DNA of 64,000 bases, taken from the NCBI GenBank assembly GCA_964459445.1, contig CAYWMP010000002.1:4293-68292 (forward strand), in the 5' to 3' direction. The position numbers and the translations under genes are program-made. Below, in pieces: positions 30,923-44,685 of this stretch (position 1 is its first letter; the number at the start of each line of letters is the position of its first letter). The notes beneath the pieces were generated by a model that was not told where the DNA came from, did no database searches, and saw only the letters and a list, made by a program, of their open reading frames with translations. Source of the DNA: an uncultured Desulfobacteraceae bacterium. GTDB taxonomy: Bacteria; Desulfobacterota; DSM-4660; Desulfatiglandales; HGW-15.

Positions 30923-31254
30923 AGGAAGAGTATTTGATCAGATACGCAATTGCCCATGTCCAACAATCTGATGAATAGCTTACTTTAGCTGAAGAAAATC
31001 TCCCAGATTAGATAAAAATTTTCCATAGATAGCAGCTACATTCAATCCAGGTATTTTGAAGGTTTTTTATCGTAAGGTTGCGCTCGGGTCTGCGCATGAT
31101 AGTAATGACTACCAAGTGTATTCTATTGAGAATTTGGGTTGATAGCATTGTCGAAAATGTCCCCTATCTATTCCCTCCCGGCAAAATTCAATTTTCAGGA
31201 AAGGGAATAGACGTTTGTCACGCTTATCAACTACGTCCCCCAAATCCCCTGAGG

Positions 31255-32250
31255 CTAGCCGATGCTGCAAGAGATACCCATTTTTATGAACAAATTCCGA
31301 AACCGTTCGACCTGCCCGGTCTCTGGAGTGGGCGTAGAATCATAGGGGAAATCGCGATCCAGCATTTCGTATTTTGATTTGCCGAAGCTATGAAATGGAA
31401 GCAGATTCACTTCTCTCAGTGAATCCAATTTTATAACAAAAGTGGCAATCGCCCGAATGACCTCGATATTGTCGTTAAAATCTGGAATAACCGGGACCCT
31501 AATGATTAAATCTTTTCCCAGTTCGGAAAGAAACACAACATTTTTCAGAATTACTCGGTTTGACACCCCGCTGAAGCGGCGGTGGCATTCCTCGTCAATA
31601 CACTTGATATCGTAAAGAAAGAGGTCATTCACAGCGGCAATCTGCGAAAGTTTTTTATGGTCGGTTATGTACCCGCAGGTTTCAATCGCTGTGTGAAGAT
31701 ATTGCTTTCGGCAAGACGCGAGCAAGGCTTGCAAAAATTGAAATTGGAGAAGGGGCTCCCCACCGGAGAAAGTTACCCCTCCGCCGGATCTCGTGTAGAA
31801 GGGAGCGGAATGCGTGACCTCCCCGATCACCCTCGAAACGGACATGGTTGTGCCGAACAGTTTTCGGGCACCGTTCTCGCAGGCGGCCACACACCTACCA
31901 CAACCGATACAGGCGCGCCGATCAAGCCGGATAATTTCCTCCAAAGTCACGGAAATTGCCTGCTCCGGGCATACCTCAATGCAACGCCCACAGCCTACGC
32001 AACGCTTCTGCAGAATCCCGAGTTCCGCCCGTGGACTTTGAGATTCGGGATTTGAACACCAGAGGCAGTTAAGGGGGCAGCCTTTAAGAAAGACAATCGT
32101 CCGGATACCGGGTCCATCATGGATGGAATAATCCTGGATATCGAATATCGTCCCCTCAATCTCTTGAAACCTGCTTTGGAGATGGCTTGTGTTACTTTGC
32201 ACGACGTGGAACTCTCCCCTTAGGGCTCGCACGAAATACCTGCACATCAT
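31255..32250 (-). CDS. glycyl-radical enzyme activating protein (radical SAM)
   Basis: GCPLNCLWCSNPE (CX3CX2C), preceded by HDGPGIRT. Two ferredoxin-type motifs: CVGCGRCIEVCP and CIGCGRCVAAC. The exact start is uncertain. Confidence 0.9.
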   Translation of the reverse strand: MMCRYFVRALRGEFHVVQSNTSHLQSRFQEIEGTIFDIQDYSIHDGPGIRTIVFLKGCPLNCLWCSNPESQSPRAELGILQKRCVGCGRCIEVCPEQAISVTLEEIIRLDRRACIGCGRCVAACENGARKLFGTTMSVSRVIGEVTHSAPFYTRSGGGVTFSGGEPLLQFQFLQALLASCRKQYLHTAIETCGYITDHKKLSQIAAVNDLFLYDIKCIDEECHRRFSGVSNRVILKNVVFLSELGKDLIIRVPVIPDFNDNIEVIRAIATFVIKLDSLREVNLLPFHSFGKSKYEMLDRDFPYDSTPTPETGQVERFRNLFIKMGISCSIG

Positions 32251-32296
32251 TTGTTTTCAGGTATGAGTTTAGGTTTTTGAAACGCGATCATACTAT

Positions 32297-32513
32297 GGGC
32301 ACTAGGGTCTTTTTTCAAGACGGCCGCCCAAATAGAGCCCGTGCTTCTTACCGCCCCCATGATTCGGCAGGTGGTTCCGGGAGAGGCACAAAAGGCTAAT
32401 GGCGCAGGAACGAGATGGCTCTGTGGGGATGCTTCCAAAACATGTTGGATGTGGGTGCCGTTCCACGACCTCCCAAGATATGGCGGCGCTCTTGAAAAAA
32501 GACCCCAGTGCCC
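32297..32513. repeat. 217-bp element bounded by 32-nt terminal inverted repeats (MITE-like)
   Basis: gggcactagggtcttttttcaagacggccgcc (32297-32328) is the near-perfect inverted complement of ggcggcgctcttgaaaaaagaccccagtgccc (32482-32513). Confidence 0.8.
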
Positions 32514-32576
32514 AATGATCACATCATTTCATAAATCTAAAATGTTACGTTTTCAGATATTCTTGTGCGAGATTTC

Positions 32577-35075
32577 TTAGAGCATCATATTTTCGGTTCT
32601 TCCAATAATGTCATCCTGAACTTTCGGGTCGAGTGCAGTAAAAAGGGCGCTGTACCCGGCCACTCGTACCATAAGATCCGGGTACTTTGCCGGGTGGTGC
32701 TTTGCCTCCCGAAGCGTTTCGCCGTCAACGATATTAAACTGAACGTGCATGCCTTTCAAATCCCCCAGAAAGGTGCGGATGAGGGAGGAGAACTTTCTCT
32801 TTCCTGTTTCATCTTTCAGTACAAGAGGAGAAAATTTCATGTTAAAAAGGTTCCCGCCGGAACAGAGTAGATTTGGTATTTTGGCAACCGATTTCATTGC
32901 TCGGAGGGGGCCCTTTCGGTCCATGCCATGGGTTGGGGAGGTCGTATCCGCAGTTGGTTCCCCATCTTGGCGACCATCCGGCGTAGCGCCTATATACTGA
33001 CCAAAGGGGATGTTCCCAGAAACCGTACTTGTCGATGCCTGCCAGGTGCATCCCCGAGGTCCCTTGCCGTATCTTGTCACTTTGTACTTGGGCAGTTCCC
33101 GGCAGAAAAGATCGAGGGCCGCGGCGGTTAAATTGTCCGCATAATCATCATCGTTTCCGTATTTGGGAACCTCAAGAAGCATTCTGCGAATCTCCTCGCC
33201 TGAGGGAGTGGTCGCTTGATCACTGAAATTCGTATCCATTGCATGAAGTAGCTGTGCTCCGGTCAGTTTCTCTTCCTTGTAGACAAGTTTTTTGATAGCA
33301 GCCAATGAGTCGCCCACATTGGCGAGTCCAACGATCAGCGGTCCACAAAAATCGTATACCGCGCCACCTTGCTTGATGGTTTTCCCTCTTCCAATACATT
33401 CTTCCACAAAACAAGAAACAAAAGGGTTAGGGACGAGTTCTTCCATGGAAGTGTCTATACTATTATCAAGGGTTACCTGGAGTTTAGTAAAAAAACGGGC
33501 TTGACGTTGCCAGTTCTCCAAAACTTCTTCGAATGAACCAAAAGAGGAAAGGTCGCCGTCCTGGGGATGCAGCCTGTGGCCGGTTTTCGGATCGCACCCA
33601 CCGTGCAGGGCGATTTCCAATATTTTAAGCATACTTATAAAAGAAGCCCCATTTGGCCGATACCCCTCCCTTCCCTCCACAATCGGTTCGACACAGCCAA
33701 CAACCGACCAGTTCACCGCATCTTCATAGTCGATGCCTCGATTCAAAAGGGACGGGATGACAGTCTCATCGCTGTACAGCCCCGGTTGTCCCCCACCGAG
33801 TCTGACAACGTCTATGACCTCCTGCAGAAACGCCTCAGACACGCCATCATGAAACCGGAAAGAAAGTGATGGCGCACTGAGCCTTATGGCCTTCTGAGTA
33901 CCCAGAATGAGGTAAGAAAGGAGATTGGTTGCATCTTTGCCGCCATAATGCTGACCACTGAAGGTTATATTTTGAAAAACCTGATAACCCGCGAAGAATT
34001 GGGTACTGTCCCAATCACGGATCTTATTCACTGTAAACAGTTTGAGCCAAAAGCACTGCAGCAGTTCGGCCGCCTCTTCGGTAGTGATCGCGCCTCGTTC
34101 GAAATCAGAAAGAAGATAGGGATAGAGCGTCTGATCCAATCGTCCAAGAGACATTGAATGACCGTTATTTTCGATCTGAAGGATAGCCTGTACGAACCAT
34201 AGCGATTGCAGGGCCTCATAAAAACTCCTCGCCGGATTGTAGGGAACTCGTTCACAGATTGCTGCAATCTTCTTCAGCTCATCTTGCCGCTTCGGATTCT
34301 TTTCCTTTGTAGCCAGCTCATTCGCAAGCGCTGCATACCGATTGGCAAAAATGACGGCGCCATCCAAGGCCAAAAGGGCTGCAGAGTAAAAACCTCTTTT
34401 CCGTACCGCCTCAGGCTCTGCCATATCCAAGGCCTCCAGGTTCTGTTTAATCTCCTCCACAAGTCCCTTAATGCCCTTGCTCAGCAGTTTTTTAAAATCG
34501 ATGGTGATATGGCCGTCCCCGCCCTGCATGAGCCAGTAACTGTTAATCACCATCATATCCGAGGCTTTCTGAACATCATCGGGGAGGATTGACAAAACCC
34601 GTTCGCAATGGGTTTTCGTGTGCCATTGGGGCAGAAGCTCTTTAAGTTCGGCGCGGACATCCGACCGAATCGCATACCGATCACCGGGACGTTCATCAAA
34701 ATAAAAGGGATTACCATCGAGCTCCCGTTCAATCCATTCGACTTCAAACTCCGGGAAAAGCTCAACACCACGCGGGTGTTTCGCCGTATTCCCCACCAGT
34801 AATTCACCGTCGAGAATATAAATGGACATATTTTCGAGCATGCGGGTAAGAGCCTTGGCCCTCTTCATAATGATGGAATCGCTCTGATACTCCTGGTAGG
34901 CCTGGGTGTAATGCCGTACGCGCTCAGAGGATATTTCCGGCATAAGATCAAGAAGATGATTCCGCAATCGGTCGATTCTTTCCGATCTTTTCTCTGCGAT
35001 TTTTTTGGCTGTAACGCCATCCGGCAGCCCCGGATCCCTCAACGTTTCGGCGGTTGATGCGCTAACCCCTTGCAT
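32577..35075 (-). CDS. glycyl radical enzyme, PFL2 / diol-dehydratase-like (eliminase-type), substrate unknown
   Basis: 832 aa. C-terminal glycyl radical motif VRVAGYSALF. Thiyl loop VVGCVEP carries the Glu typical of 1,2-eliminases. An activase gene lies downstream. Confidence 0.9.
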   Translation of the reverse strand: MQGVSASTAETLRDPGLPDGVTAKKIAEKRSERIDRLRNHLLDLMPEISSERVRHYTQAYQEYQSDSIIMKRAKALTRMLENMSIYILDGELLVGNTAKHPRGVELFPEFEVEWIERELDGNPFYFDERPGDRYAIRSDVRAELKELLPQWHTKTHCERVLSILPDDVQKASDMMVINSYWLMQGGDGHITIDFKKLLSKGIKGLVEEIKQNLEALDMAEPEAVRKRGFYSAALLALDGAVIFANRYAALANELATKEKNPKRQDELKKIAAICERVPYNPARSFYEALQSLWFVQAILQIENNGHSMSLGRLDQTLYPYLLSDFERGAITTEEAAELLQCFWLKLFTVNKIRDWDSTQFFAGYQVFQNITFSGQHYGGKDATNLLSYLILGTQKAIRLSAPSLSFRFHDGVSEAFLQEVIDVVRLGGGQPGLYSDETVIPSLLNRGIDYEDAVNWSVVGCVEPIVEGREGYRPNGASFISMLKILEIALHGGCDPKTGHRLHPQDGDLSSFGSFEEVLENWQRQARFFTKLQVTLDNSIDTSMEELVPNPFVSCFVEECIGRGKTIKQGGAVYDFCGPLIVGLANVGDSLAAIKKLVYKEEKLTGAQLLHAMDTNFSDQATTPSGEEIRRMLLEVPKYGNDDDYADNLTAAALDLFCRELPKYKVTRYGKGPRGCTWQASTSTVSGNIPFGQYIGATPDGRQDGEPTADTTSPTHGMDRKGPLRAMKSVAKIPNLLCSGGNLFNMKFSPLVLKDETGKRKFSSLIRTFLGDLKGMHVQFNIVDGETLREAKHHPAKYPDLMVRVAGYSALFTALDPKVQDDIIGRTENMML

Positions 35076-35251: not shown

Positions 35252-35399
35252 ACAATGGTAATTTCTCTAGAGTCCTTCAACGAAAAAGCAAGTTCTTATC
35301 ACCTCACCTCATCTACCTCACCAATTGCATATGAAAATGAACATAATATTTCATAACTAAAAACGTTAGGAAACAATCTTGGGAGCAGGAGGCAATCAT

Positions 35400-36257
35400 A
35401 TGATTCAAAAAATTCTGTTCGGGAAAACAAATCATCAGAGTTCCAGGGCCATTTTCGGTTCTGTAAGCCTAGGCGGAGTCAGTCAGTCTGAAGCTGATCG
35501 AGCGCTGGACCTCCTGTGGGAATACGGTGTAAACCATATTGATACGGCACCCAAATACGGAGAGGCCGAACTGCGGTTGGGACCATGGATGAAGCAGTAT
35601 CGCAATCAATTTTTCCTGGCCACCAAAACCAATGAACGAACCTATCAGGATGCAAAGGAGCAGTTTTATCGATCGCTGGAAAGACTCCAGGTGGACAGCG
35701 TTGATCTACTTCAGTTTCACAACCTGACGGATGTAGTCGAACGTGAAATCATCATGGGACCGGGCGGGGCGTTGGAATTCGTGATCGAAGCAAAAGAAAA
35801 GGGATTAACCCGATATATCGGCATCACCGGTCACGGCCTTCATTCCCCGCGGTTTCATATGCAGACCCTGGAACGATTTGCCTTTGATAGCGTATTGCTA
35901 CCTTGCAATTATTTGCTCTTGCAAGACCCGAATTACGCAGCCGAATTTGAAAATCTTCTTACTTACTGCCGGAATCATCACGTAGCGGTGCAGACAATCA
36001 AGTCGATCGCGCGGGGTTACTGGGGGGATAAGGGGTGGAGTCACAGCACCTGGTATGAACCCCTGTCAGACGAAAAGGCTATCACAAAAAATGTTCACTG
36101 GGTATTAGGTATTCCCGATATATTTCTCAACACGGTAGGCGATTTGCAGGAACTGCCCAAGGTTTTGAAAGCTGCCGATAGTTTTGAAAAACGCCCTTCC
36201 AACGAAGAAATGACCGAAACGGTTGAAAAAATGAATATGCAGAAGCTATTCAGTTAG
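35400..36257 (+). CDS. aldo/keto reductase
   Basis: AKR-like features (DTAPKYGEAE, LATK, GITGH). AGGAGG precedes the ATG at 35400. Confidence 0.8.
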   Translation: MIQKILFGKTNHQSSRAIFGSVSLGGVSQSEADRALDLLWEYGVNHIDTAPKYGEAELRLGPWMKQYRNQFFLATKTNERTYQDAKEQFYRSLERLQVDSVDLLQFHNLTDVVEREIIMGPGGALEFVIEAKEKGLTRYIGITGHGLHSPRFHMQTLERFAFDSVLLPCNYLLLQDPNYAAEFENLLTYCRNHHVAVQTIKSIARGYWGDKGWSHSTWYEPLSDEKAITKNVHWVLGIPDIFLNTVGDLQELPKVLKAADSFEKRPSNEEMTETVEKMNMQKLFS

Positions 36258-37069
36258 CCGTTCCGATTTTCTTTAACCCTATTCATAAATGCTTTTACGC
36301 GGTTTACATCAATATGGTTTTCAAACACGCCGTCGTATTTGAAGGTCGTCCCGACTACTGCCCCGTCGGCGATACCGAGCTGTTCTTCCACATTCTCAAG
36401 GCGCACACCCGTATTGGCGAATACAATTGTATCAGGCACGGCCTCTTTGACCTTTTTTAATACTTCCTTGTCCGTCTGCACCCCCGCCGTCAGCCCGGAG
36501 ACACACAAAGCATCCGGGCGGTAATTGAATACGGTCGATTTGGCAATGTCCACAATGTCGCGCTCTGCCAAATAGAGTGCCGCTTCCGGCACAATATTGA
36601 ACAACAGCTTTACATGTTGGGCTCCGATGGCGTGCTGATGGCGCACCACGGTCCCGCAGTCGGTATTCCATAAGCCGAAATCGCTGGCGTAAACGCCTGT
36701 GAAAACCTCGCGCACAAAAAGGGCATCGGTCGCAACAGCCAGATCTAGTGATGCTGCAGGATCCCAGAGAACATTGACGCCGAAGGGTATGTGAATTTCA
36801 GGCATCAGCTCGCCAATAATTCTCGCCATGGCAGCCACAGTGACCGTCTCCACCTTTTTCAGATAAGGCAAACTAAACTCATTTGAAAACATCACGGCAT
36901 CAACACCGCCTTCCTGAAGGGCCGCAAGATCCTTGCGTGCCCATTCGACGACGTCCTCCATTCCCTTTTGTATATCAAAGGAAGGATCGCCCGGAAGAGC
37001 GTCCAAATGGCACATGCCGATAATGGGTTTGCGACATCCAAATACTTCTTCTATCCAGTCTTTTCTCAT
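36254..37069 (-). CDS. BtpA/SgcQ-family TIM-barrel protein (paralogue 1)
   Basis: The N-terminus FGCRKPIIGMCHLDALPGDPSF matches the BtpA/SgcQ family as I recall it. It is paralogous to 37658-38479. Confidence 0.6.
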   Translation of the reverse strand: MRKDWIEEVFGCRKPIIGMCHLDALPGDPSFDIQKGMEDVVEWARKDLAALQEGGVDAVMFSNEFSLPYLKKVETVTVAAMARIIGELMPEIHIPFGVNVLWDPAASLDLAVATDALFVREVFTGVYASDFGLWNTDCGTVVRHQHAIGAQHVKLLFNIVPEAALYLAERDIVDIAKSTVFNYRPDALCVSGLTAGVQTDKEVLKKVKEAVPDTIVFANTGVRLENVEEQLGIADGAVVGTTFKYDGVFENHIDVNRVKAFMNRVKENRNG

Positions 37070-37166
37070 AGCGGTTTACCAGATCACTGGAAGCGCGAAG
37101 GGCTACCATGGAAATTCGCATTAATCAATGAGTGATGCTCCAATAAGATAGTACTTTAGACGCCTC

Positions 37167-37610
37167 TTAAAAGGGAACGCCGGAGACGAGGATTACATTG
37201 GCGTAGGGCGTGAATTCACCTGTTCTTACGATGGCCTTTACTTCTTCTCCCTCTTCAGCACCTCTTAGACCCAGGTGTTTGAATTTTTCGTGAGGGATTT
37301 TTTCCACCACAATAGCGTTGCCCTTATTATCCAAACCTTCAACAATCTGTATCAATTCCTTATATACTTCAGGACTTATTTCCTCTGTCTCATTGGCAAT
37401 AATTATCTTCTCTATTTCCAGATCATTTAAAACGACTTTCACCACATCTAAAAATCTCGGAAGATTATACCCCACCGCAACGTCAACTTTTTTTGTTAAA
37501 TCATGTACCGGAAAAGGGAATCCTCGATCAACAACGAATAACATATTCCCGTGTCCCATATCAGAAACCACTTGGAGTAATTCAGCATTTAAAATACCGG
37601 CCTTTTTCAT
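37167..37610 (-). CDS. RbsD/FucU-family sugar mutarotase/pyranase
   Basis: MKKAGILNAELLQVVSDMGHGNMLFVVDRGFPFP parallels the RbsD N-terminus (..GHTDTLVVCDAGLPIP). Confidence 0.8.
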   Translation of the reverse strand: MKKAGILNAELLQVVSDMGHGNMLFVVDRGFPFPVHDLTKKVDVAVGYNLPRFLDVVKVVLNDLEIEKIIIANETEEISPEVYKELIQIVEGLDNKGNAIVVEKIPHEKFKHLGLRGAEEGEEVKAIVRTGEFTPYANVILVSGVPF

Positions 37611-37657
37611 GAAATGATCCTCCTTTCTACGATTTTAAATTCCTAGGCCATAGGCCA

Positions 37658-38479
37658 TCAACGCAGTGTTTTGACCTGATCCATAAACGATTTTGTGCGT
37701 TCGAAGGAAACCGCATTCTGCCATTTCCCTTCTTCTTTGAATTCACTACCCACTATGGCCCCATCAATAATTTTGAAATAGTCCTTAGCATTATCTTTGT
37801 TAATTCCACTGCCGACAAAGACGGGCAAATCCACAGACGATTTCACAGCTTCGATGTCGGATAAACTTGGTTTTTCGCCCGTGGCGCCGCCGGTTATAAT
37901 CACGGCATCACCTTTGAATGCCTCTACATCATGGGCTTGTTCCTTTATACCCCTATCTGAAGTGATGAAATGACTTCCATGCTTTACAAGAACATCCCCT
38001 AGAATCCTGATTTTATCTCCGCCTATGGCATGTCTGTATCTTAAAGCCTTGGGACCGGAGGCCTCGACAATACCGGCATTCGATATATAGGTATTTGCTA
38101 ACTCGAAAACGCGTATCCATTTAGCACCAGAGGAAACACCGGCTGCCAGCGCCTGTATTGATCCATTAAGATGACAATTGATCCCCACCGGTATTCCGAC
38201 CGTTTGAATAACCGCATAGGCGCACACGGCTAGCGAGGCGGTGGTTTCATGCCCTATCTCGCTTCCCTTCAGGTAGGGATGATCCCACATGTTTTCAATC
38301 TGAAGGCCATCCACGCCGGCCTTCTCCAATAGCGTTGCCTCTTGAACAGCCGTGTCAATGACCGCGCTTATATCACCCTGAGCGTAGAAGGGTGATCCCG
38401 GCAAGGGACGCAGATGCACCATTCCAATGACGGGTTTAAAGGTACCGAAAATCTCATTAATCCATTGAACTGAATCCAT
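37658..38479 (-). CDS. BtpA/SgcQ-family TIM-barrel protein (paralogue 2)
   Basis: FGTFKPVIGMVHLRPLPGSPFY. Length and motif layout match 36254-37069. Confidence 0.6.
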   Translation of the reverse strand: MDSVQWINEIFGTFKPVIGMVHLRPLPGSPFYAQGDISAVIDTAVQEATLLEKAGVDGLQIENMWDHPYLKGSEIGHETTASLAVCAYAVIQTVGIPVGINCHLNGSIQALAAGVSSGAKWIRVFELANTYISNAGIVEASGPKALRYRHAIGGDKIRILGDVLVKHGSHFITSDRGIKEQAHDVEAFKGDAVIITGGATGEKPSLSDIEAVKSSVDLPVFVGSGINKDNAKDYFKIIDGAIVGSEFKEEGKWQNAVSFERTKSFMDQVKTLR

Positions 38480-38511
38480 TTTGATTTCTACCTGTCCGGG
38501 TTAAAGATTGC

Positions 38512-39477
38512 CTAATCTGTGATACTTCCCTTCCGCATCAGGTCCTCCACATCCTGTAATGTTCCCATGGATCGTGCCCCTACCTTTGTACAGCAGATAC
38601 CACCGCAGGCATTGGCGAATTTCCCTGATTCTTCCATATTGTATCCCTTTAACAGGCTGAAGATAAACCCTCCATGAAAGGCATCGCCGGCACCGGTTGT
38701 ATCGACAACAGGGACTCGGTATGGTGGAATTTTTAATTTAGTTTTACTATTCAAAACGAGACACCCTCTATCACCGAGTGTGACGGCAACCATGGAGGAT
38801 CCAAAGTCGAGCAACTTTTCTGCCTTTTCTTCAAGATCCTCCGAACCTATGAGCTCCTTTGCAGCCTTTTTGCACGGTATAAGGACATCAGCAAGCTCCA
38901 ATGCCCGACTCATTTCCTCTTTCGTCGCCAGTTTTGCTTCTTCGACGAAATAGGACGGTGGCACATCCAAATCAAATACGATTTTTACACCGTTTTCTTT
39001 GGCTATTTCCATGGCCCTGATTATAGGATTCAGGGGAATCAGGCAGGCCTCGGTGTGAAGCACTTTTGACGATTGTATATAGGCTTTATGCTTTTGCTCT
39101 ATCTCTTCAGCGTTCAGTTTCACCAAAACATTGGGAAACATGCTTATTGCTCTTTCGCCGTTTTGGTCTACCTGAATCCAGGTAAACATGGAATATTCCC
39201 CTTTCACGACCTCCGCATGGCTGTAGTCAATACCCTCGTTGTGAAAATCTTCCAGCAAAATTTTTCCGGCGTCATCATCTCCTAATTTTCCAAACCAACC
39301 GGTTTGAACTCCCAAGCGACCCAACTGCGTGATAACATTGCCGGCTACCCCGCCGGGGTGGATTTCATAACCTTCTGCCATTATTTTCTCATCAGCCGAA
39401 GGAATTGTCGGGAGCAGTGCAAAATAATCGACAGCCAGGGTTCCGATTGCTGCCACGTCAATGGATTTGTTCGACAT
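38512..39477 (-). CDS. PfkB-family carbohydrate kinase
   Basis: An N-terminal GxxxxD region and the C-terminal motif DTTGAGDAFHGGF. Confidence 0.85.
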   Translation of the reverse strand: MSNKSIDVAAIGTLAVDYFALLPTIPSADEKIMAEGYEIHPGGVAGNVITQLGRLGVQTGWFGKLGDDDAGKILLEDFHNEGIDYSHAEVVKGEYSMFTWIQVDQNGERAISMFPNVLVKLNAEEIEQKHKAYIQSSKVLHTEACLIPLNPIIRAMEIAKENGVKIVFDLDVPPSYFVEEAKLATKEEMSRALELADVLIPCKKAAKELIGSEDLEEKAEKLLDFGSSMVAVTLGDRGCLVLNSKTKLKIPPYRVPVVDTTGAGDAFHGGFIFSLLKGYNMEESGKFANACGGICCTKVGARSMGTLQDVEDLMRKGSITD

Positions 39478-39648
39478 AGGTCTTCCCCCCTGTATGCAAC
39501 AAAGTCAATATCGTATGAGTCATCTTGTTTTTCTGATTGCTATTAGGTGACATGTTAGAAACTGACAGAGGAAAGCAAGCTGGGCGTTCCTCCACAGATG
39601 TCACCGGCCTTGTATTCCCACAAAAAAGAGATCGAGGTAATTCGAAGG

Positions 39649-40137
39649 TTATACCTGAATGACGATCCTATCGCCCAGCTTTTTCATTTCAAGATCTTGT
39701 TCAGGTGTAGAGGCTTTTAAGAATACAAAATAATCGAGGACCCGGTCATCGAGCGGTCCGGCAGCAAAATGCCATACACCCTCGGGTAGGTAGATGAGCT
39801 CGCCTTTCATTACAGGAACGATCTGGATTTGATCCGTCACCGGCGTGTCCCCCGGCGGGGCCAGAGGGACAAACATGTCGGAATTTATCGGTATAAGTAT
39901 TTCACATGAAGAAAGATGTCGTTCCATTCTATCGAAAGACGTAAATGGTTTTTTAATTCGGCAGATGCCCACGTCATAACCTTCGGCATAACCGGGAAAT
40001 TTGCCCAGAGGATTCCAGAAATCGAGCAGGTCGTTACTGAAAAGCGGTTCGTCTTGAGGAACTTTTGTTATCCAGAACATGCCGGAAGTGGATTCATCGA
40101 TACTTTCTCGCTCAATACCTTTGATTATTTCGCCCAT
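39649..40137 (-). CDS. AllA (ureidoglycolate lyase)-like cupin-fold protein
   Basis: MERHLSSCEILIPIN resembles the ERHPLGSQAFIP motif of the AllA family. 162 aa. Confidence 0.4.
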   Translation of the reverse strand: MGEIIKGIERESIDESTSGMFWITKVPQDEPLFSNDLLDFWNPLGKFPGYAEGYDVGICRIKKPFTSFDRMERHLSSCEILIPINSDMFVPLAPPGDTPVTDQIQIVPVMKGELIYLPEGVWHFAAGPLDDRVLDYFVFLKASTPEQDLEMKKLGDRIVIQV

Positions 40138-40182: not shown

Positions 40183-41295
40183 CTAGTAAAGCGCTTCTTC
40201 GGTTTCAGGATGAAAAACCAGAATGGCTTCACGCTGCACCCATGCATTGACTATTTGATCTTTGGCAAATTTAGCGCTGGTTGGCGTAAGAATTGAAAAC
40301 TCAATGTCTCCGTTTCTCACGACGGTTATCGCTTTTTCACCGATAAACTCTGAAAAGACGGTAGCCCCTTCAATTTTACACGCTTCATTTTCTATTTTTT
40401 CCAAAGATATGTACTGGGGACGGATACCGACGGTAACGTGGGTTAAAGCTTCTTTTTTGATTCTATCGGCTTTATGATTATTAATTTCGAATTGGAGGTT
40501 TTGTGTTTTCTCTGCTTGAAGAACAACACCCGAATTATTGGTGACAACAGCGCATTCAAAAAAGTTAATGTGCGGTTCTCCCACAAATCCGGCTACGAAT
40601 TTGGTTTCCGGTCGATCATAAAGCTCGTTTCTGGTGCCGATCTGATGCAATTTGGCAAAATTCATGACTGCAATCCGATCGGCCATGGAAAGAGCATCGA
40701 TCTGGTCGTGGGTAACATAAATCATCGTGGCCTCCAAATCATAGTGAAGCCGCTTGATTTCATTTCTCATTTGAAATCGCAAATCAACGTCAGAATGCGA
40801 GATCGGCTCATCGAGCAAAAACACGGCCGGGTTTCTCACCAGGGCCCGGGCTAGTGATACCCGCTGTTGCTGGCCTCCGGAAAGCTGTGGTGGCCTTTTG
40901 GAAAGTATTTCTTCCAAACCGAAAACTTTAGCAATTTCATTTACCTTCTTCTCTTTATCCTCTTTTTCGAATCCCATCACATCCAGAGGAAACCCGATAT
41001 TTTTAGACACGGTCATGTGAGGATAAAGGGAATAACTCTCAAAGGCCATGGCCACATTACGTTCCATGGGAGAAAGATCATTTATTATCTTTTCATCCAA
41101 GAGGATTTCACCGCTGGTGATATCTTCGAGTCCGGCGATCATTCTCAAAGTTGATGTTTTGCCGCATCCTGACGGTCCCAGCAAGGCCACAAGTTCACCG
41201 TCTCTTATTTCTAAATTCAGATCGATGACGGCTTTAACTTCGGCTTTGCGCGAATGATAAACCTTATTGATGTTTTTAAAAGTAACCCGAGCCAT
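40183..41295 (-). CDS. MalK/UgpC-type ABC ATPase (second of two)
   Basis: GPSGCGKTS, LSGGQQQRVSLARAL, VFLLDEP, YVTHD, and a C-terminal TOBE-like domain. The Q-loop reads MAFESYSLYPH. Confidence 0.9.
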   Translation of the reverse strand: MARVTFKNINKVYHSRKAEVKAVIDLNLEIRDGELVALLGPSGCGKTSTLRMIAGLEDITSGEILLDEKIINDLSPMERNVAMAFESYSLYPHMTVSKNIGFPLDVMGFEKEDKEKKVNEIAKVFGLEEILSKRPPQLSGGQQQRVSLARALVRNPAVFLLDEPISHSDVDLRFQMRNEIKRLHYDLEATMIYVTHDQIDALSMADRIAVMNFAKLHQIGTRNELYDRPETKFVAGFVGEPHINFFECAVVTNNSGVVLQAEKTQNLQFEINNHKADRIKKEALTHVTVGIRPQYISLEKIENEACKIEGATVFSEFIGEKAITVVRNGDIEFSILTPTSAKFAKDQIVNAWVQREAILVFHPETEEALY

Positions 41296-41401
41296 TTTTC
41301 TTCCTTTTTGAGCAGATGAGTTGCTCTATCGCTGTTGTGCGCTTCCAATGCCCCGCAGGGGCCACTTCTTTCAAGCACAGCCTTGGAAAAAATCTAGATT
41401 A

Positions 41402-42517
41402 TTACTGTAAAGTAATCGCCAGGTTGTCCCTGGTATCCGAATCAAAGAAGTAAAACGCCCCGGCATCCAGATAAAGTTTGATTTTCTGGTTGTGATCGAT
41501 CTGGGCGCCTGGATCGACAAGGCCCACCAGCGACAGATTCCCCAAACTCGTCGTTAAAACCCCCTCGGATCCGAGGGGTTGAAATACATCAACCACGGCT
41601 TCAAACTCAATTTTGTTTCCGTCTGGAAGAATGGAAACATCCTGGGGCCTTACACCGAGGAGCAGCTTTTCTTTTTTGTATTTCTGCAATAGACCTTTTT
41701 GTTCCGGAAGAACCGAAACCTTGAAATTCGGATCTATTTGAGATTCCAGTATGATATTATCATTCTCACTGCGGATGAAACATTCGATGGCGTTAATTGC
41801 CGGTTGACCGACCTGTCGGGCCACCTCAAAATGTATGGGCCGATAGAAAATATTCTCCGGCGTATCCAACTGCAAGACTTTTCCGTGATGCAGGATCAGA
41901 ATTCTGTCCCCCAGACTCAAAGCTTCCGTATAGTCATGGGTCACGTATATGGTTGTCGCCTCTCTCAAGGCCTCGATTCTGTGAAATTCTTCTCTGAGCT
42001 CCACCCTGATTTTGGCATCGAGGTGGGCGAGGGGTTCATCCAGCAGATACACTTTGGGGTGCCTTACCATAGTCCTGCCAAGGGCTATTCTCTGTTTCTG
42101 ACCGCCACTTGCCTCTGCTGGAAACCTATCTAAAAGTGACTCGATATGAAGCATTGTAGCAATACCGACAACTTTGTCTTTTATCTGATCTTCGGTAAAT
42201 TCGCCCTTTTTCGCCCGCAGCGGATATGCCATATTTTCAAACACCGTCAGATGGGGGTACAGGGAATAGTTTTCAAAGGTCATGGAGACGTCGCGTTTGT
42301 AGGGTGGGACTTTGGTTATGTTTTCTCCATCCATCAGCAGGCGGCCCTCTGTGGGGTTAATCAGACCGCATGTTATTTTTAAAGTGGTGGTTTTCCCGGC
42401 ACCGGACGGCCCGAGAATAACTAAAAATTCCCCATCCCGGGTGACGAAGTTAATATTATTTACTGCAGTGACATCACCGTATATCTTGGTCACATTTTCA
42501 AACTCTAAAACTGCCAT
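41402..42517 (-). CDS. MalK/UgpC-type ABC ATPase (first of two)
   Basis: GPSGAGKTT, ASGGQKQRIALGR, VYLLDEP, YVTHD. The Q-loop reads MTFENYSLYPH. Confidence 0.9.
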   Translation of the reverse strand: MAVLEFENVTKIYGDVTAVNNINFVTRDGEFLVILGPSGAGKTTTLKITCGLINPTEGRLLMDGENITKVPPYKRDVSMTFENYSLYPHLTVFENMAYPLRAKKGEFTEDQIKDKVVGIATMLHIESLLDRFPAEASGGQKQRIALGRTMVRHPKVYLLDEPLAHLDAKIRVELREEFHRIEALREATTIYVTHDYTEALSLGDRILILHHGKVLQLDTPENIFYRPIHFEVARQVGQPAINAIECFIRSENDNIILESQIDPNFKVSVLPEQKGLLQKYKKEKLLLGVRPQDVSILPDGNKIEFEAVVDVFQPLGSEGVLTTSLGNLSLVGLVDPGAQIDHNQKIKLYLDAGAFYFFDSDTRDNLAITLQ

Positions 42518-42529
42518 GAATTCTCCTTA

Positions 42530-43375
42530 TTATCCTTTCACAACGCCTAGGGACAAACCTCGAATCATATAGCGCCGTAACCATATAAACAATATTATCG
42601 GGGGGATGATGATCAACAGCGTAAAGGCCGCGACCTGGTTCCACAAATCCATACTGCCATGGGCAAACGTTGGAATGATCAGGGGATAGGTAACGACCTG
42701 GCTGCCGACAAGAACATTGGCGAAGAGAAATTCATTCCAGGCAAATATCCAGCAGAGTATAACGACAGAAACCAGCCCGGGTTTTACCAGTGGCAGCGTC
42801 ACTTTAAAAAAGGTTCTGAAGGGGCTGTACCCATCGACATAGGATGCTTCTTCGAGTTCTACCGGAACATCTCCGAAAAACATCATCATCAGCCACACCG
42901 AAAGGGGGAGATTAAATACAAGATAGGTGATAATCAGGGAAAAATAGGTGTCCAATAATCCGAAGAAATTGAAAATAAAGAATATAGGCAAAATAATTGA
43001 CACCGGAGGAAACATCCGCACGGAAAGAATCCAGAAAGACAGGTTTTCGCCGCCTGCCTTTTTGGGCCAGCGAGCAAAGGCATAGCCGGCCAAGGAGCCG
43101 AAAAAGACCGAAAGGATCGTCGTAGAAACGGATACGATAACGCTGTTAACTACGGATTTGGTGGCCATTCGATTATGATAGATGGCTGTATAGGCAATGG
43201 TGGAGAATTTCTTGGGGAAAAACGTTGGAGGAATGGAGTTGACTTCCGCCATTTCTTTGAAAGAAGTATTTAAGGCCCAGTATATAGGAAAGACCATAAA
43301 GACAAAAAATATACCCAAAAAAACGAGCCCCAGGATTTTGGCGAGTTTTAAGTGTCTGACGAATTGTCGGTTCAA
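42530..43375 (-). CDS. carbohydrate ABC transporter permease (MalG-like)
   Basis: EAA loop LEEASYVDGYSPFRTFFKVTLPLVKPG. About 6 TM segments. Confidence 0.85.
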   Translation of the reverse strand: MNRQFVRHLKLAKILGLVFLGIFFVFMVFPIYWALNTSFKEMAEVNSIPPTFFPKKFSTIAYTAIYHNRMATKSVVNSVIVSVSTTILSVFFGSLAGYAFARWPKKAGGENLSFWILSVRMFPPVSIILPIFFIFNFFGLLDTYFSLIITYLVFNLPLSVWLMMMFFGDVPVELEEASYVDGYSPFRTFFKVTLPLVKPGLVSVVILCWIFAWNEFLFANVLVGSQVVTYPLIIPTFAHGSMDLWNQVAAFTLLIIIPPIILFIWLRRYMIRGLSLGVVKG

Positions 43376-43387
43376 GTTTTTCCTCCC

Positions 43388-44323
43388 TTAATGGATTTTT
43401 TGGGCATACATCACCTTTTTCATGAACTTGATAAAAAAAGTGATAATCACAACGGACCCCAATGCGATGACCCATACCATAGCGGTGGCCTGGCCGATAT
43501 TGAACTGTTGCACGCCGACCAGATACCCCAGGTAGGAGGGCAGCTCCGAAGCGCCCCCCGGTCCGCCGGAGGTCATCACCGTCACCTTGTCAATAAACTT
43601 GTAGGCATCAATAAATCTCAAAATAAACGCAATCGCGATCAGCTCCCGCAGCATGGGCAGGGTAATGCGCGTCAGTGTCATCCAAGGGGTGGCCCCGTCC
43701 ACCCGGGCGGCTTCATAAACGCTTTCAGGAAGCGATATCCTGCCGGAATAGATGATCATCAGAGGCAGCGACGTCCATTCCCAAACATCGGCTATCACAA
43801 TGGAGGTCAGGGCCAGCTTGGACCCCAGCCAGTTAATGGGATGCATTCCGAAAAGATCGTGCAAGATAGTGTTGACCACCCCGCCCATGGGATTCAAGAT
43901 AAACCGCCACAAAACACCGACCACCGAGGGGGGCATCATCATCGGGAGAATAAAAATCACCAATAATATGAGCTGCAACCTTTTGTTTTTTATATACTCA
44001 TACAACAAAAGCGCTATGACGATGGCCAGGACCATTTCCAGCAGCACCCCAAATGACATATAGAACGCGAGATGCTTGATGGATTCCCAAAATCTCTCCG
44101 ATGTAAACAACCACTTATAGTTGCCCCATCCAAACCATTTGGCTGCACCCACGATGGGGTTGTACTGATGGAAGCTGTAATAAAGGGACCAGAACATGGG
44201 GTAAATAACGACTGCCACAAGTGTAAAGAAAGCAGGCAGCACCAGTAAGAAAGGGGTTTTGTTGCTTACGATGACGAGATCTTCTTTCGGTGGTTTTACT
44301 TTTTTTGCCATAACAACCGCCAA
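43388..44323 (-). CDS. carbohydrate ABC transporter permease (MalF-like)
   Basis: EAA loop VYEAARVDGATPWMTLTRITLPMLR. Confidence 0.85.
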   Translation of the reverse strand: MAVVMAKKVKPPKEDLVIVSNKTPFLLVLPAFFTLVAVVIYPMFWSLYYSFHQYNPIVGAAKWFGWGNYKWLFTSERFWESIKHLAFYMSFGVLLEMVLAIVIALLLYEYIKNKRLQLILLVIFILPMMMPPSVVGVLWRFILNPMGGVVNTILHDLFGMHPINWLGSKLALTSIVIADVWEWTSLPLMIIYSGRISLPESVYEAARVDGATPWMTLTRITLPMLRELIAIAFILRFIDAYKFIDKVTVMTSGGPGGASELPSYLGYLVGVQQFNIGQATAMVWVIALGSVVIITFFIKFMKKVMYAQKIH

Positions 44324-44645
44324 TCGGATTATGAAAAAACTTTTTTCGTCTGCCCTGTTAAACCTTCGGTTGTTTAACCGGGGTTATTTCGTGCTTTCGT
44401 GATTAATTTATCCTTTTTGGTTCTCCGCTATAGGCGGAACCGGGTTAGAGTTATTAATCCGCAGTATTGTGGATCGGATAAAATGGGGCTGTGGAAGCTT
44501 GAACGTCCCGCCTTTGTTCAAGGTAATTTGGCACCCCTTTTGAGGCAAAACCTTCAGGGGGTAATTTTCTAATGGCTAATTGTCTAGAAGGAATAGAATC
44601 CGTTCTTATATTTCACCCATTCTTAGAATGGTAAATGGTGGAATA

Positions 44646-44676
44646 GGCAGGGCCCTGAAAAAAACAAGGCCCTGCC
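44646..44676 (-). other. GC-rich stem-loop 9 nt after the binding-protein stop codon
   Basis: ggcagggcc-N13-ggccctgcc. No U-tract follows on the minus strand, so it is not a canonical intrinsic terminator. It may be an mRNA stabiliser or a partial terminator. Confidence 0.5.
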
Positions 44677-44685
44677 GCACGGATC

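What the first reader, a model, noticed from the sequence alone, without database searches (positions are those of the whole stretch)
36254..40137. Two BtpA/SgcQ-family paralogues embedded between a PfkB kinase and an RbsD/FucU mutarotase
BtpA/SgcQ TIM-barrel proteins have no established enzymatic function. Here two diverged paralogues (36254-37069 and 37658-38479) flank a sugar mutarotase gene. They follow a PfkB kinase and an AllA-like cupin in one tightly spaced minus-strand operon with an ABC importer. This context argues that they act on a phosphosugar, for example as aldolase, isomerase or epimerase. That would be the step otherwise missing from the locus.
Basis: inference. Interest (0 to 1): 0.65.

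Follow-up and report, generated by a model that had tools for sequence, protein, structure and literature searches.

The report
Kinase-linked BtpA and SgcQ barrel enzymes
Two genes of the uncharacterised BtpA/SgcQ barrel family sit in one sugar-uptake operon: one is the standard type, which lies next to a PfkB sugar kinase in about half of 79 other species, and the other is a close relative of E. coli SgcQ, so both probably process phosphorylated sugars although the reaction is still unknown.

Summary
36254-37069 and 37658-38479 (minus strand) both match BtpA/SgcQ far above threshold and flank an RbsD pyranase. Upstream on the same strand lie a PfkB kinase, a small cupin and a CUT1 ABC importer.

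They are not two copies of one enzyme. BtpA-2 (37658-38479) is the canonical type. In 79 loci from bacteria and archaea a PfkB kinase is directly adjacent in 40 (odds ratio 22 against genes at least 4 kb away). Ribose- or nucleoside-type transporters, RbsD and nucleoside phosphorylases are often present too.

BtpA-1 (36254-37069) is 69% identical to E. coli SgcQ. It replaces most polar residues conserved in the canonical type. Its usual module is M29 peptidase-like, FGGY kinase and SgcQ, with a convergent aldo-keto reductase and DhaKL. The window keeps only the reductase and DhaKL of that module.

The model is a phosphate-binding (βα)8 barrel with no close solved relative and no published enzymatic function. 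Best reading: kinase-coupled phosphosugar enzymes, isomerase/epimerase slightly favoured over aldolase. A glycyl radical enzyme system lies next to the same cassette in two genomes. Interest is moderate; these are new members of a known, uncharacterised family.

The parts
37658..38479 (-). BtpA-2: canonical BtpA-type (βα)8 barrel, 273 aa, probable partner of the adjacent PfkB kinase
   Evidence: Pfam BtpA E = 1.2e-72 and TIGR00259 229 bits. The AF2 model has pLDDT 88.7 and is an eight-stranded barrel. It carries the family signature H22 E62 N63 D66 E78 N105 R123 R147 R149 D162 K166 H167 T200 G223 S224 K248. The 74%-identical orthologue in L007 sits in the same cassette.
36254..37069 (-). BtpA-1: SgcQ-type barrel, 271 aa, orthologue of E. 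coli SgcQ
   Evidence: 69% identical to E. coli K-12 SgcQ but only 32% to BtpA-2. Pfam BtpA E = 3.8e-92. Its signature is H S N S V. W R R Q N E A A N T K, so most canonical polar residues are replaced. Relatives of 77-90% identity lie in M29-FGGY-SgcQ modules.
37167..37610 (-). RbsD/FucU-family pyranase (mutarotase), 147 aa
   Evidence: Pfam RbsD_FucU E = 1.7e-36. NCBIfam D-ribose pyranase 138.9 bits, above its cut-off of 93. RbsD is directly adjacent to BtpA in 6 of 79 other loci.
38512..39477 (-). PfkB-family sugar kinase, 321 aa, not a canonical ribokinase
   Evidence: Pfam PfkB E = 2.4e-55, but below all NCBIfam equivalog cut-offs. The best PDB matches are ribokinases and sulfofructose kinase, both around 95-100 bits. 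At the positions of E. coli RbsK N14/D16/K43/N46/E143/D255 it reads A/D/V/N/gap/D.
39649..40137 (-). Small cupin-like protein, 162 aa, function unknown (weak ureidoglycolate-lyase similarity)
   Evidence: Pfam Ureidogly_lyase E = 2.9e-05 over residues 68-160 only. The PDB match is E = 0.04. It is conserved at the same position in L007/L095.
40183..46296 (-). CUT1-type ABC importer: SBP (44686-46296), two permeases (43388-44323, 42530-43375), two MalK/UgpC-like ATPases (41402-42517, 40183-41295)
   Evidence: Pfam SBP_bac_1, BPD_transp_1 (two genes) and ABC_tran (two genes). NCBIfam UgpC/MalK-like and GlcU/GlcT-like, all below cut-off. L007 has the same gene order.
35379..36257 (+). Aldo-keto reductase, convergent with BtpA-1 (4-bp overlap); conserved neighbour of the SgcQ type
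   Evidence: Pfam Aldo_ket_red. 78% identical to the AKR that is convergent with the SgcQ-type gene in L092. The same arrangement occurs in the P0001 contig and in L100.
50437..52169 (+). DhaK (50437-51462) and DhaL (51534-52169), dihydroxyacetone-kinase subunits; the other conserved neighbour of SgcQ-type genes in related genomes
   Evidence: NCBIfam DhaK 404.8 bits (cut-off 406.25) and DhaL 129.6 bits (cut-off 138.3), both just below cut-off. DhaK is 60% identical to Dak1 of L092. Dak1-Dak2 lie beside M29-FGGY-SgcQ in the P0001 contig, L092/L093 and L100.
46380..50068 (-). Upstream co-directional genes: PDH-like E1 beta (46380-47435), E1 alpha (47374-48429), FGGY pentulose-type kinase (48521-50068)
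   Evidence: The FGGY kinase is only 31% identical to the SgcQ-associated FGGY of L001, but 53% identical to the FGGY that accompanies a related glycyl radical enzyme in L097.
30056..35075 (-). Neighbouring glycyl radical enzyme system: GRE (32577-35075), 91-aa ORF (32247-32522), activase (31255-32250), FAA-hydrolase-family protein (30056-30922); possibly linked to the cassette
   Evidence: Pfam and NCBIfam matches. The best PDB matches are YbiW, glycerol dehydratase and diol dehydratase at about equal scores. A GRE orthologue (74%) and activase (52%) lie directly upstream of the same cassette in L095/L007.

Best explanation
Both genes encode soluble (βα)8-barrel enzymes. They bind a sugar phosphate through the standard phosphate-binding loops after strands 7 and 8, and they act directly after a sugar kinase.

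**BtpA-2** is the canonical type. It works on the product of the adjacent PfkB kinase, which is a ribose-like sugar that the ABC system imports and RbsD makes available in the furanose form.

**Most likely chemistry (inferred, not shown).** The enzyme abstracts a proton next to the sugar carbonyl. It would therefore be an aldose-ketose isomerase or an epimerase that turns the kinase product into a pentose-phosphate-pathway intermediate. The conserved residues H22, E62, D162, K166 and H167 on the catalytic face would carry this out.

**BtpA-1** is an SgcQ orthologue. Its phosphate site and H, N, R and K core are kept, but its acid/base residues are exchanged. It most likely performs a related reaction on a different phosphosugar. 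It belongs to a second module (SgcQ, aldo-keto reductase, DhaKL). The PfkB-BtpA-RbsD importer cassette appears to have been inserted into that module here.
For: **Shown**
- Both proteins belong to the family.
- The barrel model is confident (pLDDT 88.7).
- Strands 6-8 align to the phosphate-binding loops of TrpA, HisF and GGGPS.
- The structural neighbours are HisF, NanE, TrpA, PriA/HisA, TrpF, ThiE and GGGPS. These are phosphate-binding barrels, and many of them are isomerases or epimerases.
- The conserved polar residues lie at strand C-termini.
- A PfkB kinase is directly adjacent in 40 of 79 loci from bacteria and archaea, and co-directional in 45. Within those loci PfkB makes up 40 of 277 genes within 1.5 kb but 4 of 535 genes at least 4 kb away (p = 9e-16).
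- Recurrent partners are ribose-type ABC importers, RbsD or a mutarotase-like DUF4432, GntR/LacI regulators, and nucleoside phosphorylase or Bmp genes.
- In the seven RbsD-BtpA-PfkB-RbsACB operons (L009, L011, L014, L017, L025, L026, L052) no other catabolic enzyme is present. In the six of them that were checked, the kinase keeps the full E. coli ribokinase sugar-site signature.
- BtpA-1 is 69% identical to SgcQ.
- The E. coli sgc operon supplies phosphorylation by a PTS and contains an RPE-like epimerase.
- The window AKR and DhaK are 78% and 60% identical to the AKR and Dak1 that flank the SgcQ-type gene in L092. The same layout recurs in L100 and the P0001 contig.
- The L007/L095 genome has the same cassette without an SgcQ-type gene.

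**Inferred**
- The reaction type.
- The identity of the sugar.
- The insertion history.
Against: - No experiment or solved structure exists for any family member.
- Structural neighbours have TM-scores of only 0.5-0.6 at 12-17% identity, so they do not fix the chemistry.
- If the substrate in the ribokinase operons is ribose 5-phosphate, an isomerase would duplicate the housekeeping RpiA/RpiB.
- A conserved D162-K166 pair in the canonical type would equally suit a Schiff-base aldolase.
- The surroundings here would fit an aldolase that releases a small carbonyl product. These are the reductase, DhaKL and a YbiW-like glycyl radical enzyme. The island 30056-52169 contains no recognised aldolase.
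- The window kinase lacks the ribokinase sugar-site residues, so the sugar is not plain ribose.
- Co-transcription of BtpA-1 with the cassette is inferred from a 97-nt gap only.
Confidence: 0.4

Rival explanations
1. Aldolase or C-C lyase. BtpA-2, and perhaps the SgcQ type, cleaves the kinase product into glyceraldehyde 3-phosphate or DHAP plus a small aldehyde or ketone. Examples would be a DERA- or FSA-like cleavage of a pentose 5-phosphate or of a 1-deoxyketose phosphate. The small product would then be reduced by the aldo-keto reductase, phosphorylated by DhaKL, or be connected with the glycyl radical enzyme.
For: - A kinase plus one barrel enzyme is the whole catabolic content of many operons.
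- The canonical type has a conserved Asp162/Lys166 pair at the end of strand 5.
- SgcQ-type genes in related genomes are flanked by an aldo-keto reductase and DhaKL.
- A GRE whose best solved match is YbiW lies next to the cassette in two genomes. In the characterised YbiW/PflD pathway the next step is an aldolase (PMC13450708).
- The island has no other aldolase candidate.
- TrpA, a structural neighbour, performs a retro-aldol-type cleavage (reaction from own knowledge).
Against: - K166 is not kept in the SgcQ type or in several intermediate subtypes. No lysine in the barrel centre is family-wide.
- There is no profile similarity to DeoC (hhalign probability 1.5%).
- No class I aldolase appears among the top 50 structural matches. 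The only aldolase is class II YdjI at rank 47.
- No aldehyde-handling gene is a recurrent neighbour of canonical BtpA.
- DeoC co-occurs with BtpA in three loci, which argues against a simple DERA replacement.
- The AKR and DhaKL could simply form a glycerol/dihydroxyacetone branch.
Confidence: 0.27
2. Another enzymatic reaction on a ribosyl or glycated phosphate ester. One example is an Amadori-type rearrangement or deglycase acting on a phosphorylated riboside or ketosamine (analogous to HisA/TrpF, or functionally to FrlB after the FrlD kinase). Another is a reaction on ribose 1,5-bisphosphate made from nucleoside-derived ribose 1-phosphate.
For: - Metallopeptidase-like genes recur next to family members: M20 twice per locus in three Bacillales loci (L028, L030, L031), M29 with the SgcQ type, and M42 SgcX in E. 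coli.
- GntR/UTRA regulators occur in 8 loci.
- DeoD-like nucleoside phosphorylase occurs within 10 kb in 9 loci, with Bmp nucleoside-type binding proteins. An ADP-ribosylglycohydrolase lies two genes upstream of the PfkB-BtpA pair in L029.
- Most BtpA-linked kinases lack the ribokinase residues that contact the sugar.
- Three conserved arginines plus K248 would suit a second anionic group.
- HisA/PriA/TrpF are among the best structural matches.
Against: - The cleanest operons have a true-ribokinase signature and RbsD, which points to a free sugar rather than a conjugate.
- No conserved partner supplies or removes an aglycone.
- The support is all circumstantial.
Confidence: 0.15
3. Non-catalytic role. 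The proteins would act as assembly or stability factors ('membrane complex biogenesis protein', as BtpA was named in cyanobacteria), as a PTS chaperone, or as a nucleoside triphosphatase as E. coli SgcQ is labelled. A variant is that only BtpA-1 is a non-catalytic, sugar-phosphate-binding subunit or regulator.
For: - The database names say so, and a 2026 paper calls SgcQ 'PTS chaperone-like'.
- The SgcQ type has lost E62, D66, D162, K166 and H167 of the canonical set.
- E. coli sgc deletion mutants (ΔsgcC and ΔsgcX from the Keio collection) show no growth defect on 190 carbon sources.
Against: - Neither protein reaches the cyanobacterial BtpA equivalog cut-off (149 and 193 bits against 400).
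- The organisms concerned are non-photosynthetic, and the genes sit in cytoplasmic sugar operons next to kinases.
- A complete phosphate-binding motif and a strongly conserved polar face are typical of enzymes.
- The SgcQ type is about 70% identical between E. coli and this window and has gained other acidic residues, so its site is remodelled rather than decayed.
- There is no P-loop or other NTPase feature in the Pfam results.
Confidence: 0.08

Closest known systems
E. coli SgcQ (b4303) of the sgcXBCQAER operon
   Same: BtpA-1 is 69% identical over its full length. Both lie in sugar-uptake operons where the sugar is phosphorylated (by a PTS in E. coli). The DeoR regulator of the Atribacteria-type module matches SgcR at E = 9e-45. 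A metallopeptidase-like gene accompanies the SgcQ type in E. coli (M42) and in related modules elsewhere (M29).
   Different: The window has no PTS, no SgcX/M29 gene, no SgcE and no SgcR. Instead the gene follows a PfkB-BtpA-RbsD cassette and keeps AKR and DhaKL neighbours. The function of SgcQ itself is unknown.
Cyanobacterial BtpA (photosystem I biogenesis/stability factor; NCBIfam NF045918)
   Same: It belongs to the same Pfam/TIGRFAM family. BtpA-2 is the closer of the two (193 against 149 bits) and shares the canonical residue signature.
   Different: Both score far below the equivalog cut-off of 400. The host is non-photosynthetic and the context is a cytoplasmic sugar operon. The thylakoid role (own knowledge: Bartsevich and Pakrasi 1997; Zak et al. 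1999) gives no mechanism that would apply here.
Ribulose-phosphate-binding / standard phosphate-binding (βα)8 barrels: HisA/HisF, TrpA/TrpF, NanE, GGGPS, ThiE, RPE
   Same: They share the fold and the glycine-rich phosphate loops after strands 7 and 8. All act on phosphorylated, mostly ribose- or ribulose-derived substrates.
   Different: Identity is only 12-17% and TM-scores are 0.5-0.6. The N-terminal half shows no sequence match. The catalytic residues of those families cannot be mapped. hhalign against the RPE homologue SgcE gives a probability of 0.4%.
Kinase plus barrel-enzyme pairs of sugar catabolism: KdgK-Eda, DeoK-DeoC, YihV-YihT, and the isomerase and epimerase of the als (allose) operon, RpiB and AlsE
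   Same: The logic is the same: import, mutarotase, PfkB-type kinase, then one barrel enzyme that delivers central metabolites (own knowledge of those pathways; operon content).
   Different: BtpA is not a sequence member of any of those barrel families (Pfam gives only BtpA; DeoC comparison). Its product is unknown.
Anhydroglycolysis (GRE isomerases YbiW/PflD followed by FSA aldolase)
   Same: A GRE whose best solved match is YbiW lies beside sugar kinases, a sugar importer and barrel enzymes of unknown function.
   Different: Glycerol and diol dehydratases score almost the same as YbiW (645 and 635 against 649 bits). No FSA/transaldolase-family gene is present. A link between the GRE and BtpA is only positional (two genomes, plus a more distant GRE in L029).

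Membership tests
BtpA/SgcQ family (Pfam PF03437, TIGR00259) | Full-length match to the family HMM above the curated cut-off | tested here: met
   BtpA-1 scores 308.8 bits (Pfam, cut-off 30) and 328.6 bits (TIGR00259, cut-off 153.4). BtpA-2 scores 244.9 and 229.1 bits.
BtpA/SgcQ family, canonical active-site type | Signature H22 E62 N63 D66 E78 N105 R123 R147 R149 D162 K166 H167 T200 G223 S224 K248 (derived here from 94 sequences) | tested here: met
   BtpA-2 carries all of these residues. BtpA-1 keeps only H, N63, R123, R147 and K248. The feature is therefore met for BtpA-2 and not met for BtpA-1.
SgcQ orthologue group | High full-length identity to E. coli SgcQ and the SgcQ-type signature (S62, S66, N162, E166, A167, N223, T224) | tested here: met
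   BtpA-1 is 69% identical to SgcQ with the same signature. BtpA-2 is 30% identical.
SgcQ orthologue group | Usual neighbourhood: phosphorylating uptake (PTS, or ABC plus FGGY kinase), an M42/M29 peptidase-like gene, a DeoR regulator | tested here: not met
   The window has no M29, M42, SgcR or SgcE homologue. Its FGGY kinase is only 31% identical to the SgcQ-associated one. Only the AKR and DhaKL neighbours seen in related genomes are kept.
Photosystem I biogenesis protein BtpA (NF045918 equivalog) | Score above the equivalog cut-off of 400 bits | tested here: not met
   149.5 bits (BtpA-1) and 193.4 bits (BtpA-2).
Standard phosphate-binding (βα)8 barrels | Eight-stranded barrel with glycine-rich loops after strands 7 and 8 that align to the phosphate loops of TrpA/HisF/GGGPS | tested here: met
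   AF2 model with pLDDT 88.7. The profile aligns 'GSG' and 'DGAIVGS' to TrpA, HisF and GGGPS. Foldseek neighbours agree. Actual phosphate binding was not tested.
Class I (Schiff-base) aldolases, e.g. DeoC/LacD, KDPG aldolase, transaldolase/FSA | Family HMM match, and an invariant catalytic lysine in the barrel | tested here: not met
   Pfam finds no aldolase family. hhalign against E. coli DeoC gives a probability of 1.5%. K166 is conserved only in the canonical type and is E, G or another residue in other subtypes. This does not exclude aldolase chemistry for BtpA-2.
Ribulose-phosphate 3-epimerase family | Family HMM match and His/Asp metal ligands | tested here: not met
   There is no Pfam match. 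hhalign against SgcE gives a probability of 0.4% and aligns only strands 7-8. Metal ligands cannot be mapped.
Ribokinase (for the partner kinase) | Equivalog score, plus the sugar-site residues N14 D16 K43 N46 E143 D255 of E. coli RbsK (residue list from own knowledge of the RbsK structure) | tested here: not met
   TIGR02152 scores 159 bits against a cut-off of 299.65. The window kinase reads A D V N gap D at those positions. The kinases of the RbsD-BtpA-PfkB-RbsACB operons in other genomes do meet the signature.
Ureidoglycolate lyase (AllA) (for the cupin) | Full-length family match above cut-off | tested here: inconclusive
   Pfam scores 24.2 bits against a cut-off of 23, but only residues 68-160 match. 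NCBIfam scores 21 bits against 212. The PDB match is E = 0.04.

The most novel reading that the evidence does not exclude
Canonical BtpA may be the unrecognised second enzyme of a widespread two-step route, a PfkB kinase followed by BtpA. This route would take ribose- or nucleoside-derived pentose into central metabolism without the classical non-oxidative pentose-phosphate pathway. One possible reaction is cleavage of a pentose 5-phosphate into glyceraldehyde 3-phosphate plus a C2 aldehyde. That would explain why the pair occurs alone in many archaea. In this window the route would be coupled to a new sugar-related glycyl radical enzyme and to a neofunctionalised SgcQ paralogue.
Probability: 0.12. 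Interest if true: 0.8.

Novelty: new member of a known kind. Interest (0 to 1): 0.52.

Why it matters
BtpA/SgcQ is a widespread family, with about 2,600 clusters at 50% identity in bacteria, archaea and phototrophs. It has had no enzymatic function since the 1990s, and E. coli sgcQ was still unassigned in 2026.

The comparison made here turns a vague 'membrane complex biogenesis' label into a concrete, cheap experiment. The steps are to take a BtpA next to a true ribokinase, make the kinase product and see what BtpA does to it. It also shows that the family has at least two active-site types with different partners, so results for one type should not be carried over to the other.

If the reaction is a new entry into pentose metabolism, it would matter for archaeal and anaerobe carbon metabolism and for annotation of thousands of genomes. 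If it is a plain isomerase or epimerase, the gain is a corrected annotation.

Tried and rejected
- **Single-sequence AF2 of BtpA-1** gave an unusable model (pLDDT 48).
- **PDB searches.** Sequence and profile searches found no solved family member, only the phosphate-loop region of TrpA, HisF and GGGPS.
- **Foldseek** gave only generic phosphate-binding barrels.
- **Literature searches** for BtpA, SgcQ, PF03437 and COG0434, with or without kinase, ribose or TIM-barrel terms, found no functional study. Searches on the pentose bisphosphate pathway did not mention the family.
- **Domain fusions.** The long ORFs in L019, L083 and L089 are only over-extended starts.
- **DERA replacement** is weakened, because DeoC homologues lie near BtpA in L018, L024 and L027.
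- **The window FGGY kinase as the usual SgcQ partner** is rejected. It is 31% identical to that partner, whereas true orthologues are 68% identical to each other.
- **Heteromer of a canonical and an SgcQ-type subunit as a general rule** is rejected. In the eight other loci with two BtpA genes, both copies are canonical.
- **Promoter and terminator scans** were uninformative.
- **PDB searches with the kinase, the cupin and the binding protein** did not reveal the ligand.

Full report
**1. The observation**

The minus strand carries an unbroken run of genes:
- a solute-binding protein (44686-46296)
- two permeases and two ATPases (40183-44323)
- a small cupin (39649-40137)
- a PfkB kinase (38512-39477)
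- BtpA-2 (37658-38479)
- RbsD (37167-37610)
- BtpA-1 (36254-37069)

Both BtpA genes match Pfam PF03437 over the whole profile, with E = 1.2e-72 and 3.8e-92. Both pass TIGR00259. RbsD passes the D-ribose pyranase equivalog. The kinase is a clear PfkB member but stays below every equivalog cut-off. The cupin's likeness to ureidoglycolate lyase is weak and partial. The two BtpA proteins are 32% identical.

The co-directional run continues upstream with PDH-like E1 beta/alpha and an FGGY kinase. DhaK and DhaL are transcribed divergently from it. Downstream, an aldo-keto reductase converges on BtpA-1 with a 4-bp overlap. A glycyl radical enzyme (GRE), its activase and an FAA-hydrolase-family gene follow.

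The sugar island spans about 30056-52169. On the left it meets thiolase and acyl-CoA dehydrogenase genes. On the right it meets an M16 peptidase and polynucleotide phosphorylase; the ORFs beyond these were not annotated and are only presumed, from their order and sizes, to be the rpsO-truB-rbfA-infB-nusA cluster. Promoter and terminator scans were no better than shuffles.

**2. Two different subfamilies**

BtpA-1 is 69% identical to E. coli K-12 SgcQ. BtpA-2 is only 30% identical to it.

I aligned 94 family members from 80 species plus the window. This shows a nearly invariant canonical signature, numbered as in BtpA-2: H22, E62, N63, D66, E78, N105, R123, R147, R149, D162, K166, H167, T200, G223, S224 and K248. 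BtpA-2 has all of these residues.

BtpA-1 and its close relatives read S, S, V, W, Q, N, E, A, A, N and T at eleven of these positions. They keep only H22, N63, R123, R147 and K248.

A search of the 50%-identity library found about 2,600 family clusters. Some have intermediate active-site types. Only H22, N63, R123, mostly R147, K248 and the glycine loops are family-wide.

SgcQ-type proteins are unusually conserved. They are 75-90% identical among Desulfobacterales, Atribacteria and Anaerolineae, and about 70% identical to E. coli.

**3. Fold**

With a 54-sequence alignment, AlphaFold2 gives a confident eight-stranded barrel for BtpA-2 (pLDDT 88.7). All conserved polar residues lie at strand C-termini or in the following loops.

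The profile matches solved structures only in strands 6-8. There, 'GSG' and 'DGAIVGS' align to the phosphate loops of TrpA, HisF and GGGPS. Foldseek finds HisF, NanE, TrpA, PriA/HisA, GGGPS, ThiE and TrpF at TM 0.5-0.6 and 12-17% identity.

So the fold is a standard phosphate-binding barrel with no close solved relative. hhalign shows no relation to DeoC or to the RPE homologue SgcE beyond the phosphate loops.

**4. Context of the canonical type**

I scanned one genome per species and kept 80 loci. I called co-directional gene chains around BtpA in 79 of them.

| Feature | Count |
|---|---|
| PfkB kinase directly adjacent | 40 loci |
| PfkB kinase in the co-directional chain | 45 loci |
| PfkB share of genes within 1.5 kb of BtpA | 40 of 277 |
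| PfkB share of genes at least 4 kb away | 4 of 535 (odds ratio 22, p = 9e-16) |

Recurrent layouts:
- **A.** RbsD-BtpA-PfkB-RbsA-RbsC-RbsB with a LacI or GntR regulator (Thermotogota, Clostridia, Chloroflexota)
- **B.** Nucleoside-type loci with Bmp binding proteins, nucleoside phosphorylases and often two BtpA genes
- **C.** Bacillales (Brevibacillus, Neobacillus, Bacillus): M20-ABC-BtpA-PfkB-M20
- **D.** A mutarotase-like DUF4432 with BtpA and PfkB (Christensenella)
- **E.** DUF434/DUF5616 with BtpA
- **F.** PfkB-BtpA alone (many archaea, Acidobacteriota, Chloroflexota)

In 10 of the 44 BtpA-linked kinases aligned, the kinase keeps all six sugar-site residues of E. coli ribokinase. These include all six layout-A operons that were aligned. 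The residue list comes from my own knowledge of the RbsK structure; the alignment is. The window kinase and most others differ at N14, K43 and E143, so their sugars differ. The BtpA active-site signature nevertheless stays constant.

**5. Context of the SgcQ type**

| Source | Neighbourhood |
|---|---|
| E. coli | PTS, M42 SgcX, RPE-like SgcE, DeoR SgcR |
| Atribacteria | DeoR (SgcR-like, E = 9e-45), ribose-type ABC, M29, FGGY, SgcQ, inositol-monophosphatase family, DUF386 |
| Four related contigs (the P0001 contig, L092, L093, L100; the one taxonomic name on record for these is Deltaproteobacteria, for P0039 = L092/L093) | M29-FGGY-SgcQ with a convergent aldo-keto reductase, and Dak1-Dak2 beside or inside the ABC operon |

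The window's reductase is 78% identical to the corresponding L092 gene, and its DhaK is 60% identical. But M29 is absent, and the window FGGY is only 31% identical to the SgcQ-linked FGGY.

The closest relative of the window's BtpA-2 cassette (L007/L095, 74% identity) has the same LacI-CUT1-cupin-PfkB-BtpA-RbsD order with no SgcQ-type gene.

I infer that a PfkB-BtpA-RbsD importer cassette has been placed inside, or fused to, an SgcQ-AKR-DhaKL locus. In the eight other loci with two BtpA genes, both copies are canonical. The mixed pair in this window is therefore unusual.

**6. The neighbouring glycyl radical enzyme**

The GRE's best solved matches score almost equally: YbiW 649 bits, glycerol dehydratase 645 bits and diol dehydratase 635 bits. 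YbiW and PflD open anhydrohexitol 6-phosphates to 1-deoxyfructose 6-phosphate, which aldolases then cleave (PMC13450708).

- An orthologous GRE (74%) and activase (52%) lie directly upstream of the same cassette in L095.
- Relatives pair with FGGY kinases (L096, L097).
- The window FGGY is 53% identical to the FGGY of L097.
- A more distant GRE follows PfkB-BtpA in L029.

This suggests a sugar-phosphate GRE that may share a pathway with the cassette. The evidence is positional only.

**7. Mechanism**

Shown:
- family membership
- the phosphate-binding barrel
- a conserved polar catalytic face
- a tight genomic coupling to PfkB kinases and to ribose- or nucleoside-type uptake

Inferred: BtpA-2 acts on the kinase product.

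I favour proton-transfer chemistry, meaning an isomerase or epimerase (0.40), for these reasons:
- The nearest folds are of that kind.
- No lysine or metal set is family-wide.
- The minimal operons need no aldehyde-handling gene.
- E. coli pairs SgcQ with an RPE-like epimerase.

An aldolase is nearly as likely (0.27):
- The canonical type has a D162/K166 pair.
- The island has a reductase, DhaKL and a YbiW-like GRE, but no other aldolase.

Other phosphosugar chemistry rates 0.15. This covers an Amadori-type or deglycase reaction, or action on ribose 1,5-bisphosphate. The recurrent peptidase-like and nucleoside genes prompt it. A non-catalytic role rates 0.08.

**8. Known or new**

The family is known and named but functionally unassigned. 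A 2026 study of E. coli still lists sgcABCEQX as putative and found no growth defect in ΔsgcC and ΔsgcX deletion mutants on 190 carbon sources. The window adds new members, an unusual mixed pair, and a clear and testable kinase-coupling hypothesis. It does not add a new kind of system.

Noticed in passing
window 30056-35075 (GRE 32577-35075, activase 31255-32250); L095 10001-13438; L096; L097: The glycyl radical enzyme is below every NCBIfam equivalog cut-off. Its best solved matches (YbiW, glycerol dehydratase, diol dehydratase) score almost equally. Its clade repeatedly sits next to FGGY kinases, sugar ABC importers, an RPE-like epimerase or dehydrogenases. It may be a new sugar- or polyol-phosphate GRE.
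   Followed up: partly
window 32247-32522 (-): A 91-aa ORF lies between the GRE and its activase and overlaps the activase start by 4 bp. It has no Pfam match. It could be a small GRE subunit or a spurious ORF.
   Followed up: no
window 46380-48429 (-): PDH-like E1 alpha and beta genes lie between an FGGY kinase and the sugar importer, and no E2 or E3 gene was found among the island genes that were annotated. Such a TPP enzyme could cleave acetoin-like 1-deoxyketose phosphates (speculation). L007 instead has a split transketolase about 7 kb downstream of the cassette.
   Followed up: no
window 40183-42517 (-): A CUT1-type importer with two different MalK/UgpC-like ATPase genes in tandem. The same pair is present in L007/L095. 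One shared ATPase is more usual for this transporter class.
   Followed up: no
window 38512-39477; L018 8015-8983; L029 8978-9940: The window kinase shares an unusual sugar-site pattern (A-D-V-N-gap-D at the RbsK positions 14/16/43/46/143/255) with BtpA-linked kinases of two spirochaetes. This suggests a common, non-ribose substrate.
   Followed up: partly
L029 5025-17013: A Spirochaetes locus reads MTTB-family methyltransferase, ADP-ribosylglycohydrolase, URO-D-like, PfkB, BtpA, two MFS transporters, GRE, activase. A ribosyl-hydrolase two genes upstream of the PfkB-BtpA pair hints at a riboside substrate.
   Followed up: partly
L057 9133-10810; L063 9113-10789; L064 9161-10816; also L024, L027, L041, L046, L061: Eight loci carry two canonical BtpA genes. 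In three of them the genes are in direct tandem inside nucleoside-type (Bmp, PNP) operons. This could mean a hetero-oligomer or two substrates.
   Followed up: partly
L028, L030, L031 (Brevibacillus, Neobacillus, Bacillus); L001, L092, L100; L091 10531-11652: Metallopeptidase-like genes of three different families (M20, M29, M42) recur beside BtpA/SgcQ genes. This is unexplained and may point to sugar-amino acid conjugates as substrates.
   Followed up: no
window 35379-36257 (+) and 36254-37069 (-): The aldo-keto reductase and the SgcQ-type gene converge and overlap by 4 bp at their stop codons. The convergent pairing is conserved in L092, L100 and the P0001 contig.
   Followed up: yes
L091 8112-8918 (E. 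coli sgcQ): RefSeq still names SgcQ 'putative nucleoside triphosphatase'. Nothing in the Pfam results or the predicted fold obtained here for its 69%-identical window orthologue and for BtpA-2 supports an NTPase.
   Followed up: partly
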